Below, piece after piece: positions 37,991-40,727 of a stretch of 64,000 nt of DNA. Position 1 is the stretch's first letter. Each line of letters opens with the position of its first letter. Under the pieces are notes generated by a model, which was not told where the DNA came from, searched no databases, and was given only the letters and a program-made list of their open reading frames with translations. Made by a program: the position numbers and the translations under genes. Origin of the DNA: a virus; IMG/VR virus record IMGVR_UViG_3300044691_000347, positions 27,378 through 91,377 of that record; one strand, 5' to 3'.

Positions 37991-38389
37991 ATGAGGACTT
38001 TGGTCCCTGAACTGGTTTCTGCCGGTAACGATCGGAGACCTGGACCGATGACCGGGTTAAAGTTAGGTGTGGAGCGGTACCGAGACCTGAACGTGGTGCT
38101 TGGGCGTGTGATCGCTGAGCGCCGTGAAAGCCTGGGACTGACACAGGAACAGGTGTGGACCGCCGTCGGCCAGAACAGGAACTCATACCGTCGCCTCGAA
38201 TATGGGCAACGTGAAGTTACCGCGGAGCTACTGAAACAGGTTGCTTCGGTCCTGGAAACCCATGCGTGGAGTCTGTTACAGCGTGCCGAAACCGGTTCCA
38301 CACTGGTTGAAACTGGGCCTGCGCCCCGGCAAGTCGAGCAGCAGCGGGACGCGACAACCAACCTGGGGGCCGAGCTCGGGTTCGAATAA
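37991..38389 (+). CDS. Xre-family HTH regulator
   Basis: RRESLGLTQEQV...NSYRRLEYGQR. Confidence 0.8.
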   Translation: MRTLVPELVSAGNDRRPGPMTGLKLGVERYRDLNVVLGRVIAERRESLGLTQEQVWTAVGQNRNSYRRLEYGQREVTAELLKQVASVLETHAWSLLQRAETGSTLVETGPAPRQVEQQRDATTNLGAELGFE

Positions 38390-38426
38390 TGCTCGAATGA
38401 AATTGTGGCGGCGAACTCGCGGCGGC

Positions 38427-39251
38427 ATGTCGGGCTATCTCCCTAGACTGGCCGATGTGGTGGTATTTGTTGTTCTTATGCTTGCCGTAGCATTCGCCCG
38501 GCTCAGCATGTGGCGAACCCGCCCACGATCCCACACGTTCACGGTCGCACTTTTCGTCCTCGGGGTGGCGTTCGTGTTGTCGCTGCCCTATATCGGAGAC
38601 CGGTATGTCGATCCGGCGCTGTCGTTCGCCGGCGCCAACATCAGCGATCTCGCGCATACGATCCTGGTTGTTGTTGCCTGCTGGTTGTTCGGGGTGATCA
38701 ATTTGCGTGCCCTCTCGTGGAGTGGTTGGCAGCACGTGTGGACTGTGTGTGCCGCGTTCGCTGTCGCGGCCCTCGTTGTGCTGTGGCGGGTCGGGGATGT
38801 GTCGCGGGTGCCGGTGGATCGGGAGATGCAGCTCCAGGATTGGCCGACGAACACGTATCTGGGGATTTTCTACGGGTTCGCGGCGGCGACATGTGTGCTG
38901 GTTTTTTTGGGATCGGCCGCGGCGTGGCGGTCGAGTCGGCGGGCACTGCGGGGTGCGCTGCTGGCGTTGTGCGGTGTTGGCGTGCTGGGCGTGACCTATG
39001 TCGGGATCGGCGTGTTTTGGTTGGTGCATCGGACGGTGTGGATGCAGGCCGATGGGACTTTTCTGTTGCTGGCTGGCCCGGGTTTGTTGGTGGTCGGCAT
39101 CTCGCTGGCGGGGGTGGCGCCTGTGGTGGATACGTGGCGGCGTCGTGTGCGGGTGAGGCAACAGGCGTGGTCGGGGGCCGAAAGTCGAGACAGTCTCAGG
39201 ACATCTGAGGACCACCATGGGTCACCAACAACCCCCACCGATAACCACTAA
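38427..39251 (+). CDS. polytopic (about 7 TM) membrane protein, MAB_1171c-like
   Basis: About seven hydrophobic segments, NISDLAH motif, downstream of Xre. Confidence 0.7.
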   Translation: MSGYLPRLADVVVFVVLMLAVAFARLSMWRTRPRSHTFTVALFVLGVAFVLSLPYIGDRYVDPALSFAGANISDLAHTILVVVACWLFGVINLRALSWSGWQHVWTVCAAFAVAALVVLWRVGDVSRVPVDREMQLQDWPTNTYLGIFYGFAAATCVLVFLGSAAAWRSSRRALRGALLALCGVGVLGVTYVGIGVFWLVHRTVWMQADGTFLLLAGPGLLVVGISLAGVAPVVDTWRRRVRVRQQAWSGAESRDSLRTSEDHHGSPTTPTDNH

Positions 39252-39493
39252 TGCCCAGGTGGGACGGGTTTCGACTCTAACCCGCCCACCTGGGCCTTTA
39301 GGTCCTAATTCATCGTGTAAATGAACTCAGCCATGCCGAGCAGCCTAGTAGGCCCCAACCGATCCACGCCTTGGGGGCACCGACTCCGCGCAGCTAGGCA
39401 ACAAGATTCAGTCCAAATCCACTATGCCCGAATCAGGCTCCACAACAGGACCCTCACTGCCGTCTCCGCCATCAGGACACTCCGGAGACAGTC
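39187..39493. other. attP: core 39309-39334 (copy of the ettA 5' end) with arm-type repeats
   Basis: Minus strand ATGGCTGAGTTCATTTACACGATGAATTAG = MAEFIYTMN*; TTCAT-N7-ATGAA core; GAGACAGTC and TCAGGACA repeated on both sides. Confidence 0.8.
39255..39297. terminator. GC-rich hairpin beside the attP core
   Basis: GCCCAGGTGGGACGGGTT...AACCCGCCCACCTGGGC. Confidence 0.65.
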
Positions 39494-40727
39494 CGAGATC
39501 GACGACTGCCCCGAAGACACCGTCGATCGCCGCACGAGACCTCGCGTGACTCGACGGCATCAGATGCGTGTAGGTCCGCAACGTGAGCGCCGGATCGCCG
39601 TGACCCAGGTAGTCCGCAAGTTCCCGAATCGACACCAGATTCGCCAACTGCACCGACGCATAGAAGTGCCGCAGCTGGTGTTCGCCGTCGATGCGTCGCC
39701 GCATCGGTATGCCAGCTTTCCGGAACGCACCCCGCCACACCGTGGCATGGAACAGCTCCCCATACCACGTCTTCTTGTCCTCACGCGACATCAAGACGTG
39801 CGCCGTCACCAACGGGCCGTCAGCAAACTTCCAGGGCAGCGTGACCGAGATCGGCGGAAACGCCTCGACGTAGGCGTCGATCGACTTGAGTACATAGTCC
39901 GCCACTGGGACACTGCGTGTCCGATCATGTTTAGGAAGGGAGAACACCACTGCGCCATCCGACAGCCGCCGAATCTGGCGCTGCACATGCAGTACCCCCT
40001 CGTCACGATCCAGATCTTCGCCTACATCAACCGCAAGCATCTCCCCACGCCGCAACCCCAGACCGGCGCCGAGAGGAATGACGATCTTGCTCCGTTTAGG
40101 CAGAGCCTCATGGATCGCGTCGACCTTTGACTTGGCCCACGGGATCAACACCTTCTTGGGCACCTTCGGCGGAGTGATCGACTTAGACCGGCACGGGTTC
40201 TCGGTGATGTACTTCTCCCGAACAGCCATATCCAAAATGGACGACAGCTGACGGAACAACTGGGACACATACGACGGATCAAGCCGGCGCCCATAGTAGG
40301 TGCGCTCCCCTACCCATTCCAGCCAGTCACGTACCGCGACGACAGTGCCAGTTCGCGCAATCGCGTAGGACTCGAAGAACGGCAAAATATGCTGACTGAT
40401 CTGCGTCTCAGTCGTATTGCGGCTACTCGGGTCCGCAGACGTCCCTTTGATCCAGTCGGCCGCAACCTTCTTGAAGGCTGTCTTGCCGATGTGCGGGTCG
40501 ATGTAGTTGCGCTGGTTCAGATCGTTTTCGACCTCCACGGCGAACGCGTCCGCTTCACGCTTACGCTTGTCGGCGAACGACTTCGAGCCCTGACCGCCTC
40601 CGGGCTTGTTCCAGCGCACCTTGTACCGCATGCCCGAACCATGCTTGTCGGTTTTGACCTTGATCGTCTTCTTGGAGTCACCCGGATCGGGCTCGTCGGT
40701 GAACCACAGGTCTGTGACAGTAGCCAT
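39408..40727 (-). CDS. int: tyrosine integrase
   Basis: GLRRGE, HQLRH and LGH...TLRTYTH catalytic motifs. Confidence 0.95.
   Translation of the reverse strand: MATVTDLWFTDEPDPGDSKKTIKVKTDKHGSGMRYKVRWNKPGGGQGSKSFADKRKREADAFAVEVENDLNQRNYIDPHIGKTAFKKVAADWIKGTSADPSSRNTTETQISQHILPFFESYAIARTGTVVAVRDWLEWVGERTYYGRRLDPSYVSQLFRQLSSILDMAVREKYITENPCRSKSITPPKVPKKVLIPWAKSKVDAIHEALPKRSKIVIPLGAGLGLRRGEMLAVDVGEDLDRDEGVLHVQRQIRRLSDGAVVFSLPKHDRTRSVPVADYVLKSIDAYVEAFPPISVTLPWKFADGPLVTAHVLMSREDKKTWYGELFHATVWRGAFRKAGIPMRRRIDGEHQLRHFYASVQLANLVSIRELADYLGHGDPALTLRTYTHLMPSSHARSRAAIDGVFGAVVDLGLSPECPDGGDGSEGPVVEPDSGIVDLD

What the first reader, a model, noticed from the sequence alone, without database searches (positions are those of the whole stretch)
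39187..39493. Putative attP is a copy of the ettA start with a replacement leaderless promoter
Seen: just downstream of int, the minus strand reads TAGGCT-N7-ATG GCT GAG TTC ATT TAC ACG ATG AAT TAG (MAEFIYTMN*, 39334-39305). Inside it, TTCAT-CGTGTAA-ATGAA (39309-39325) is an inverted pair around a 7-bp spacer. GAGACAGTC (39187, 39485) and TCAGGACA (39196, 39472) recur on either side, and a strong hairpin (39255-39297) follows. Established: actinobacterial EttA (ABC-F translational throttle, e.g. M. tuberculosis Rv2477c) begins MAEFIYTMKK, and tyrosine-integrase cores have inverted sites around an overlap of about 7 bp plus distant arm sites. Inference: the phage integrates in the first codons of ettA rather than a tRNA gene. 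In the lysogen, the host promoter would drive only a 9-aa stub ending at a hairpin, while intact ettA would be expressed from a phage-supplied promoter directly behind int. Lysogeny would thus rewire a translation-control gene.
Basis: partly seen in the sequence, partly recalled or inferred. Interest (0 to 1): 0.78.

Follow-up and report, generated by a model that had tools for sequence, protein, structure and literature searches.

The report
Phage attachment site copying ettA start
This temperate actinobacterial phage carries, just after its integrase gene, a recombination site that copies the first 26 bases of the host translation-factor gene ettA plus a replacement promoter, so it almost certainly inserts at the start of that gene and rebuilds it, a known trick used here on a target not previously described.

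Summary
The window is part of a complete 91-kb free phage record. Its minus strand reads TAGGCT-N7-ATGGCTGAGTTCATTTACACGATGAA-TTAG, 73 nt after the stop of a tyrosine integrase gene.

- **Match to ettA.** The 26-mer occurs exactly in more than 120 actinobacterial genome contigs, and in all 120 loci examined it opens an ettA-type reading frame.
- **Integrated relatives.** Among 267 Nocardia species genomes, only two carry a second copy of the ettA start. They are the two with the closest integrases in that genus search (53% and 50%). Each shows attL as host promoter plus a 12-aa stub, and attR as int, TAGGCT-N7, then intact ettA.
- **Parallel attP sites.** Two other attP-form contigs (integrase 64% and 55%) have the same layout, and their cores match other ettA alleles. 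All allele differences fall in the 7-bp spacer of TTCAT-N7-ATGAA.
- **Arm sites.** Tandem arm sites sit at about -159/-148 and +129/+140 in every element.
- **Promoter.** Host ettA looks leaderless: 115 of 117 loci have TANNNT 6-8 nt before the ATG. All five element-borne left arms keep such a hexamer.

Integration at the ettA 5' end with a supplied promoter is therefore well supported. "Rewiring" of ettA expression is untested, and preservation is the simpler reading. The closest known analogue is the dusA 5'-end islands. This scan's first readers noted the same design on two other genomes.

The parts
39187..39493 (-). Whole attP: right arm, hairpin, core, -10 hexamer and left arm
   Evidence: Same layout and distances in six related elements.
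39408..40727 (-). Tyrosine integrase gene, 439 aa
   Evidence: PF00589, E = 2.7e-9. Catalytic R226, K266, H350, R353, H376 and Y386 are invariant among 10 homologues. Best homologues are 64-65% identical, from Nocardia elegans, N. africana and viral contig L199.
40737..40988 (-). Excisionase-like small DNA-binding protein gene, directly upstream of int
   Evidence: phrog_66 'excisionase and transcriptional regulator', E = 1.2e-7. 59% identical to the syntenic ORF in L199.
39472..39493 (-). Left (int-side) pair of arm-type sites, inside the 3' end of int. Minus strand reads GACTGTCTC-cg-GAGTGTCCTGA, at -159 and -148 from the A of the ATG.
   Evidence: Tandem sites at -159/-148 also occur in L199, G603, G463 and L315.
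39342..39347 (-). Phage-supplied -10-like hexamer TAGGCT, 7 nt before the ATG
   Evidence: Host ettA loci have TANNNT at spacer 6-8 in 115 of 117 cases, and 2 of 117 have a Shine-Dalgarno-like tetramer. All five element-borne left arms keep TAGGCT or TAGGGT at N6-7.
39309..39335 (-). Common core: 26 nt identical to the ettA start, or 27 nt counting the preceding C in the Rhodococcus erythropolis group
   Evidence: Exact match in more than 120 genome contigs. Identity stops at both ends of the block.
39309..39325 (.). Candidate core-type sites TTCAT / ATGAA around a 7-bp overlap (minus strand TTACACG)
   Evidence: The sequence shows this directly. All differences between the core alleles seen on elements (TTACACG, TTACCAG, CTACCAA, TTATCAG) lie in the 7-bp spacer, and the 5-bp arms never vary. 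Cleavage positions are inferred.
39305..39334 (-). 9-codon stub MAEFIYTMN plus TAG. After integration it would be the only product of the native ettA promoter.
   Evidence: Stubs MAEFIYQMNGIT*, MAEFIYQMNDIT* and MAEFIYQMNQ* are seen at attL of integrated relatives.
39288..39294 (-). Conserved heptamer CCCAGGT at fixed offset +15 to +21 after the core. Here it forms part of the hairpin stem.
   Evidence: Same offset in window, G603, G463, L315 and L340. L199 has CCCTGGT. Its role is unknown.
39253..39297 (.). 17-bp-stem hairpin, probably a bidirectional terminator, with no U-tract
   Evidence: -40.7 and -39.2 kcal/mol on the two strands, z = -6.4 and -6.9. It lies 2 nt after the stop of the convergent + strand ORF and 8 nt after the stub stop.
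39187..39205 (-). Right pair of arm-type sites. Minus strand reads GATGTCCTGA-GACTGTCTC, at about +129 and +139.
   Evidence: Tandem sites at +129/+140 also occur in L199, G603, G463, L315 and L340.
38241..39251 (+). Convergent ORF of 336 aa whose 3' end overlaps the right arm sites. A neighbour, not part of the recombination machinery.
   Evidence: No Pfam or PHROG hit. 36% identical to the syntenic ORF in L199.

Best explanation
The stretch 39187-39493 is the attP of a lambda-type tyrosine integrase system. Its 26-bp common core is a copy of the first 26 nt of host ettA.

**Proposed mechanism.**
- Int is proposed to bind TTCAT and ATGAA and exchange strands across the 7-bp overlap TTACACG.
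- Tandem arm sites about 150 bp to the left and about 135 bp to the right organise the intasome.
- Integration puts the prophage between the native ettA promoter and the gene.
- At attL the native promoter now makes only MAEFIYTMN* and runs into a strong hairpin.
- At attR the phage supplies codons 1 up to the exchange point, plus its own TAGGCT-N7 leaderless-type promoter, directly downstream of int. A full-length, unchanged EttA is still made.

**Target choice.** The target is a nucleotide-level ultraconserved segment, used the way other elements use tRNA 3' ends.

**What is shown.** Sequence identity to ettA, attL/attR of integrated relatives, core covariation with host alleles, and conserved arm geometry and -10 hexamer.

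**What is inferred.** The cleavage positions, promoter activity, the terminator function of the hairpin, and integration by this particular phage.
For: - **Free phage form.** The record is a complete virus with direct terminal repeats and a single copy of the core. Portal, terminase and tape-measure genes are present.
- **Match to ettA.** The 26-mer is exact in more than 120 genome contigs. In all 120 loci examined it is followed by the EttA-type continuation of the reading frame. EttA itself was confirmed by NCBIfam NF008775 at 923 and 853 bits, on two host genes.
- **Integrated relatives.** In 267 Nocardia genomes, only G463 and G603 have two ettA starts. They also have the closest integrases in that search. 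int lies about 75 nt upstream of intact ettA, and the other copy is a stub. The G603 copies are 11,983 bp apart and flank a pSAM2-type AICE.
- **Parallel attP sites.** attP-form relatives L199 (Int 64%, syntenic 90.7-kb viral contig) and L315 (Int 55%) share the layout, with cores matching other ettA alleles.
- **Arm sites.** They lie at the same offsets in six elements, in three sequence variants.
- **Promoter.** The -10 hexamer is kept in all five element left arms. Hosts have it in 115 of 117 loci.
- **Integrase.** Catalytic residues are intact and an Xis-like gene lies adjacent.
Against: - No lysogen of this phage was found. The predicted attR junction is absent from metagenome contigs.
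- No duplicated ettA start occurs in the 41 genomes of the Rhodococcus erythropolis genus set.
- The two relatives shown integrated with both junctions are AICEs, not prophages, and their Int is only 50-53% identical.
- In the integrase tree, the phage-type and AICE-type ettA groups are not sisters. Integrases adjacent to ArgC-like and AurF-like genes lie between them, so target specificity is labile in this clade.
- The inverted repeat is only 5 bp per arm and is dictated by the coding sequence.
- No E. coli-type promoter or U-tract terminator is detected.
- No transcription-start data for ettA were found in the literature searched.
Confidence: 0.85

Rival explanations
1. Regulatory rewiring. 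The same attP, but the point of the design is to change ettA expression in the lysogen. The changes would come from new DNA upstream of the -10, read-through from int, and loss of native control. The result would be an altered translation or stress physiology, such as a whiB7-type response, that benefits phage or host.
For: - Everything upstream of the -10 is phage DNA after integration.
- No hairpin separates int from the ATG. The 76-nt spacer folds no better than shuffles, z = +1.2.
- In M. tuberculosis, ettA is essential, and partial loss of function switches on whiB7 and gives low-level multidrug resistance (PMC9159947). Modest expression changes could therefore have a phenotype.
Against: - The phage keeps the host hexamer (TAGGCT) and the host spacing (N7).
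- The G603 element copies 18 nt of the host upstream sequence exactly.
- All five left arms keep a -10 hexamer. This pattern is what purifying selection for unchanged expression predicts.
- There are no expression data.
Confidence: 0.2
2. Relic module. The int-attP cassette was acquired from an AICE-like element and is no longer used. The phage would be lytic or would integrate elsewhere.
For: - The integrated relatives with both junctions seen are AICEs.
- Only one other viral contig in IMG/VR has a stub-type ettA start.
- The nearest isolated phages, 84-87-kb Gordonia phages with 52% identical portal, lack a close homologue of this integrase.
Against: - The int reading frame is intact with all catalytic residues.
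- An Xis-like gene, both arm pairs and the core are all intact.
- The syntenic phage L199 keeps the same module with a core tuned to a different host allele, which requires ongoing selection.
- The nearest integrases, P0002 and P0003, sit on bacterial genome contigs of Nocardia isolates.
Confidence: 0.08
3. Chance or hitch-hiked host fragment. The ettA-like 26-mer would be a leftover of aberrant excision or a coincidence, with the real attP elsewhere, for example at a tRNA-like sequence.
For: None beyond the general rule that most tyrosine-integrase phages and AICEs use tRNA genes (PMC3218068).
Against: - Chance expectation is about 4e-11.
- There is no tRNA gene in the window.
- Symmetric arm sites are centred on this core in six elements.
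- attL and attR of relatives are at exactly this sequence.
Confidence: 0.02

Closest known systems
dusA-specific genomic islands and prophages with dusA-associated integrases (Farrugia et al. 2015, PMC4482086)
   Same: A tyrosine integrase inserts the element into the 5' end of a conserved housekeeping gene. The element supplies a new 5' end, and putative promoter elements are present after integration. The displaced original 5' end marks the far boundary of the element.
   Different: - Different phylum (Proteobacteria), target gene and, presumably, integrase lineage (not tested).
- dusA gets a changed N-terminal sequence, whereas here the EttA protein is restored letter for letter.
- Here the gene looks leaderless, so the exchange happens within the first 26 nt of the transcript, and the replacement promoter is reduced to a -10 hexamer 7 nt from the core.
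Rhodococcus phage Sleepyhead attP (PLoS One 2026, PMC13313380)
   Same: An actinobacteriophage of the same host group. Its attP lies beside int and matches the end of a protein-coding gene, rebuilding it on integration. Integrase relatives of the present one also lie next to the 3' end of an acyl-CoA dehydrogenase gene.
   Different: Sleepyhead rebuilds a 3' end (91-bp match), so no promoter has to be supplied. Its integrase was not compared here.
pSAM2-type AICEs (te Poele 2008, PMC2440964; Ghinet 2011, PMC3218068)
   Same: The integrated relative in G603 has Int, RepSA, an FtsK/SpoIIIE Tra protein and a GntR regulator. The window's Int belongs to the same integrase clade.
   Different: Classical AICEs use tRNA 3' ends, and only the pSLS integrase subfamily was reported outside tRNA genes, with targets not named. 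The window element is a 91-kb tailed phage, not an AICE.
Lambda and L5-type attP (core-type inverted sites around a 7-bp overlap, plus arm-type sites)
   Same: A 5-bp inverted repeat around a 7-bp spacer. Tandem arm sites lie on both sides, an Xis-like gene is adjacent, and attP sits next to int.
   Different: The arm sites form a symmetric two-plus-two arrangement, and the left pair lies inside the int coding sequence. Binding and cleavage are untested. This comparison rests on my general knowledge of lambda and L5.
Genomic island '12.DUF756|ettA' in the MSC-1 soil consortium (bioRxiv 10.64898/2026.09.08.750204)
   Same: A 12-kb island named after a DUF756|ettA site and reported to excise after mitomycin C. 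This is the same size class as the G603 AICE.
   Different: It is only a label in a list. The host, sequence, att analysis and promoter aspect are not given in the text read, so identity with this family is not established.

Membership tests
Tyrosine recombinase / phage integrase (PF00589) | Pfam catalytic-domain match above the gathering score | tested here: met
   37.5 bits against a cut-off of 27.1.
Tyrosine recombinase / phage integrase (PF00589) | Catalytic R-K-H-x-x-R-H/W-Y residues | tested here: met
   R226, K266, H350, R353, H376 and Y386 are invariant in the 10-sequence alignment and were read in the window protein.
Lambda-type attP | Inverted core-type sites flanking a 6-8-bp overlap within the attP/attB identity block | tested here: met
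   TTCAT-N7-ATGAA lies inside the 26-bp core. Allele differences are confined to the N7 spacer. Cleavage sites were not determined.
Lambda-type attP | Arm-type sites on both sides of the core | tested here: met
   Tandem 11-bp-spaced sites at -159/-148 and +129/+140, position-conserved in six elements.
Lambda-type attP | Int binds arm and core sites and catalyses attP x attB recombination | not testable with these tools
   Needs EMSA and integration assays.
5'-end gene-rebuilding integrative elements (dusA type) | Element integrated inside the 5' end of a conserved protein gene, with the displaced 5' end at the far junction | tested here: met
   Shown for relatives G603 and G463, and for the attL of L340. 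For the window phage it is inferred from attP only.
5'-end gene-rebuilding integrative elements (dusA type) | Element supplies the replacement 5' end and promoter | tested here: met
   The start codon region and a TANNNT-N6/7 hexamer are on the element side in five of five left arms. Promoter activity is not tested.
5'-end gene-rebuilding integrative elements (dusA type) | Integrase belongs to the dusA-associated integrase (DAI) lineage | not tested
   No DAI sequence was compared. Different phylum and target, so I claim a functional analogy only.
tRNA/tmRNA-targeting phage integration | attP core matches a tRNA or tmRNA gene | tested here: not met
   No tRNA or tmRNA gene in the window or beside eight integrase relatives. 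The core matches ettA.
AICE (pSAM2 type) | Int + RepSA/Prim-Pol + FtsK/SpoIIIE Tra module | tested here: not met
   Met for the G603 element. Not met for the window, which carries portal, terminase, tape-measure and minor tail protein genes instead.
EttA (target gene) | NCBIfam equivalog NF008775 above its cut-off | tested here: met
   923 bits (G603 gene) and 853 bits (R. erythropolis-group gene, truncated) against a cut-off of 599.

The most novel reading that the evidence does not exclude
A clade of actinobacterial tyrosine integrases, carried by phages and AICEs, uses the ultraconserved leaderless start of the translation factor gene ettA as a portable attB. Swapping the promoter context, plus read-through from int, measurably changes EttA dosage in lysogens. 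That shift would alter the translation and stress state, for example the whiB7-type intrinsic resistance response, as a form of lysogenic conversion without any cargo gene.
Probability: 0.15. Interest if true: 0.75.

Novelty: new variant of a known kind. Interest (0 to 1): 0.55.

Why it matters
- **A new target class for actinobacterial elements.** It defines an attB at the first 26 nt of an essential-type translation factor gene. The whole promoter of a leaderless gene has to travel with the element. Comparative evidence shows how tightly the -10 hexamer and its spacing are kept, which is itself indirect evidence that ettA is leaderless across Actinomycetota.
- **Predictable host range.** The core differs between elements only in the 7-bp overlap, in step with host alleles. 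This gives a testable prediction of integration host range: TTACACG in the Rhodococcus erythropolis group and some Nocardia, and TTACCAG or CTACCAA in most Nocardia.
- **A possible genetic tool.** The int-attP cassette could make a single-copy integration vector for Nocardia and Rhodococcus at a site present in many species.
- **Possible physiological effect.** Partial loss of EttA function changes drug tolerance in M. tuberculosis, so any effect of insertion on ettA expression would be relevant.

The mechanism class is already known from the dusA islands, so this is an extension and not a new principle.

Tried and rejected
- **Megablast against the phage collection.** The int-attP region gave no match.
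- **Single-protein scan of viral contigs.** Nothing found. An alignment query was needed.
- **The look-up of encoding contigs was closed.** I could not inspect the Nocardia elegans and N. africana contigs that encode the closest integrases (P0002, P0003).
- **Family-wide integrase search around R. erythropolis.** It gave only homologues of 45% identity or less, with no ettA start nearby.
- **The 41 genomes of the R. erythropolis genus set.** No duplicated ettA start.
- **Predicted attR junction of this phage.** Absent from metagenome contigs.
- **My second metagenome scan was poorly designed.** It used H at the last base, which also matches the AAA lysine codon. As a result, 117 of 120 hits were ordinary intact ettA and only two were new stub sites. 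No prevalence can be read from it.
- **E. coli-type promoter and terminator scan.** It found nothing, as expected for actinobacterial -10-only promoters and terminators without a U-tract.
- **The idea that ettA-targeting integrases form one exclusive clade.** Not supported. The phage-type and AICE-type groups are separated by integrases adjacent to ArgC-like and AurF-like genes.
- **The hairpin as a conserved feature of the family.** Only three of six elements fold strongly there. The CCCAGGT heptamer is what is conserved, not the hairpin.
- **Literature searches.** Searches for ettA with attB, prophage, ABC-F or leaderless gave no description of this site beyond an island label.

Full report
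**What the window is.** The window is bases 27378-91377 of a 91,377-bp IMG/VR virus record. The record has direct terminal repeats and is scored complete. It encodes portal, large terminase, a 1,666-aa tape-measure protein and minor tail proteins. The nearest isolated phages are 84-87-kb Gordonia phages with a 52% identical portal. The ettA-like sequence occurs once in the record. We are therefore looking at a free phage genome and an attP, not a prophage junction.

**Checking the observation.**
- int is 39408-40727 on the minus strand, 439 aa, PF00589. The catalytic residues R226, K266, H350, R353, H376 and Y386 are intact. An excisionase-like ORF lies directly upstream.
- Seventy-three nucleotides after the int stop, the minus strand reads TAGGCT, then 7 nt, then ATGGCTGAGTTCATTTACACGATGAA, then TTAG. 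This encodes MAEFIYTMN*.
- A 17-bp-stem hairpin follows (-40.7 kcal/mol, z = -6.4). It lies 2 nt beyond the stop of a convergent plus-strand ORF, so it would work in both directions.
- The int-to-ATG spacer has no structure (z = +1.2).

**Is the core really ettA?**
The hits are in Rhodococcus (erythropolis, qingshengii, baikonurensis, jostii, opacus), Nocardia, and even low-GC freshwater acI lineages.
- In all 120 loci examined, the match is followed by the EttA-type continuation of the reading frame. NCBIfam confirms EttA on the two host genes tested, at 923 and 853 bits against a cut-off of 599.
- Identity between phage and host stops exactly after ATGAA on the right. On the left it stops at the ATG, or one base before it in the R. 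erythropolis group.
- Upstream, only the TAGGCT(G) hexamer is shared.

**Direct evidence that relatives integrate there.** The closest integrases in the protein collection are from Nocardia: 64% in N. elegans and 63% in N. africana. I therefore searched one genome for each of 267 Nocardia species.
- Thirty-seven have a homologue. The two best are G463 (53%) and G603 (50%).
- Those two are the only loci with an ettA start next to int.
- A degenerate ettA-start pattern hits 153 of the 267 genomes, and only G463 and G603 have two copies.
- In G603 the copies are 11,983 bp apart. The upstream copy is host promoter plus the stub MAEFIYQMNGIT*. The downstream copy follows int and opens an intact 558-aa EttA. 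The exact repeat is 44 bp.
- In G463 the repeat is 27 bp. The element-side copy keeps TAGGCT-N7, but the 7-nt spacer differs from the host-side copy. The promoter at attR therefore really is element DNA.
- The G603 element is a pSAM2-type AICE with Int, RepSA, FtsK/SpoIIIE and GntR. The G463 element has a RepSA-like gene too.

**Independent attP sites with the same design.**
- Viral contig L199 is 90,754 bp. Its Int is 64% identical, and it is syntenic with the window across xis, int and the neighbouring genes. About 77 nt after int it carries TAGGGT-N7-ATGGCTGAGTTCATTTACCAGATGAA followed by non-ettA sequence.
- Metagenome contig L315 (Int 55%) carries TAGGGT-N6 plus the TTATCAG allele.
- L340 is an attL with a host-type upstream sequence and the stub MAEFIYQMNQ*.
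- The core alleles seen on elements (TTACACG, TTACCAG, CTACCAA, TTATCAG) differ only within the 7 bp between TTCAT and ATGAA. Each matches alleles found in host genomes.
- This is the pattern expected if the 7 bp is the overlap region, which must match attB, and the 5-bp arms are core-type binding sites.
- The identity block extends 9 nt further to the left than to the right. This fits exchange near the right end, because everything to the left is replaced by element DNA and must still encode MAEFIY.

**Arm sites.** Read on the minus strand, they are tandem units 11 bp apart.
- In the window, GACTGTCT lies at -159 and GAGTGTCC at -148. GATGTCCTGA lies at about +129 and GACTGTCT at +139.
- L199, L315, G603 and G463 have GACGGCCTG-type pairs at the same offsets. 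L340 has AAGACCTG pairs at +129 and +140.
- Conserved geometry with diverged sequence is good evidence for arm-type Int sites.
- The left pair lies inside the int coding sequence. In the window, the right pair overlaps the end of the convergent ORF.

**The promoter claim.**
- In 117 host loci, 115 have TANNNT 6-8 nt before the ATG, none has it at spacers 9-23, and only 2 have a Shine-Dalgarno-like tetramer. This is the actinobacterial leaderless signature, which I infer from general knowledge. I found no transcription-start data for ettA.
- All five element-borne left arms keep TAGGCT or TAGGGT at N6-7, although the surrounding DNA is unrelated.
- The element must therefore carry, and does carry, a replacement promoter.
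- The hexamer and spacing copy the host's, and ettA is essential in M. tuberculosis, where partial loss activates whiB7 (PMC9159947). I therefore read the design as preserving expression.
- Rewiring is possible but unproven. The DNA upstream of the -10 is new, and there is no terminator after int.

**Relation to known systems.**
- The nearest described analogue is the dusA 5'-end islands and prophages, which replace the gene's 5' end and keep putative promoters (PMC4482086).
- Within actinophages, Rhodococcus phage Sleepyhead rebuilds the 3' end of an acyl-CoA dehydrogenase gene (PMC13313380). More distant members of the present integrase clade lie beside the 3' end of an acyl-CoA dehydrogenase gene, or beside the 5' end of an ArgC-like or AurF-like gene, and none lies beside a tRNA.
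- For AICEs, only the pSLS integrase subfamily had been noted outside tRNA genes (PMC3218068).
- The only literature trace of an ettA-adjacent island is the label "12.DUF756|ettA" in a 2026 preprint.
- Earlier notes of this scan describe the same TAGGGT/GACGGCCT design on two other genomes, and a small element at the ettA start in Atopobiaceae.

**Phylogeny and host.**
- In a maximum-likelihood tree of 31 integrases, the window groups with L199, P0002 and P0003 (99/96), then with L315 and P0007.
- The AICE-type ettA integrases (G603, and G463 which is identical to P0008) sit in a different sub-branch of the same 18-member clade. Integrases adjacent to ArgC-like and AurF-like genes lie between them. 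ettA targeting is therefore either ancestral with later switches or arose twice.
- The host of this phage is not identified. The TTACACG allele points to the Rhodococcus erythropolis group or to the minority of Nocardia species that carry it. The integrase relatives point to Nocardia. The phage is about 60% G+C.

**Verdict.** The core interpretation, an attP at the ettA start with a supplied leaderless-type promoter, a stub and a hairpin, is well supported by comparative evidence. Integration by this phage, and any regulatory consequence, remain to be shown.

Noticed in passing
window 39288-39294 (-); also L199:5419-5425 and the attL of G603, G463, L315 and L340: The heptamer CCCAGGT (CCCTGGT in L199) sits at exactly +15 to +21 after the core in all six elements, preceded by an A-rich AAAG/TAAG. 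The flanking sequence is otherwise diverged and non-coding. It may be a site for an accessory or bending protein, or an extended core site. In three elements it is also the base of a strong hairpin.
   Followed up: partly
host loci L003-L122 (ettA starts); window 39309-39334: The first 26 nt of ettA are identical at the nucleotide level from Rhodococcus and Nocardia through to freshwater Nanopelagicaceae and Planktophila. They use GCT and ATT codons. In 153 Nocardia genomes, only codons 5-7 vary. This suggests constraint on the mRNA start of a leaderless gene, and it explains why the segment makes a good attB.
   Followed up: partly
L170, L172, L173, L176 (Nocardia genomes G466, G573, G517, G556): Integrases 44-48% identical to the window's lie beside the 5' end of an AurF-like gene, the 5' end of an ArgC-like semialdehyde dehydrogenase gene, or the 3' end of an acyl-CoA dehydrogenase gene. 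None lies beside a tRNA. This clade seems specialised on the ends of protein genes. attL/attR duplications were not checked for these loci.
   Followed up: partly
window 39472-39493 and 39187-39205: Both arm-site pairs lie inside coding sequence: the 3' end of int, and the 3' end of the convergent 336-aa ORF at 38241-39251. These codons are therefore under double constraint.
   Followed up: no
L196 (G603:C1:5664500-5680500): A 12-kb pSAM2-type AICE (Int, RepSA, FtsK/SpoIIIE, DUF2637-HTH, GntR/UTRA) is integrated at ettA in a Nocardia species genome. It is the same size class as the island '12.DUF756|ettA' reported to excise after mitomycin C in a soil consortium preprint.
   Followed up: partly
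L315 (ERZ761594.89, 42,494-bp contig, coverage 255): A high-coverage metagenome contig carries an attP-form ettA site. Its integrase is identical to P0005, a protein also seen on an 87-kb JGI contig. It may be a third member of this phage lineage. Only 2 kb was available.
   Followed up: no
window 39321-40130 (+): A 269-aa ORF runs antisense through int and starts inside the core. It is most likely a GC-rich artefact, not a gene.
   Followed up: no
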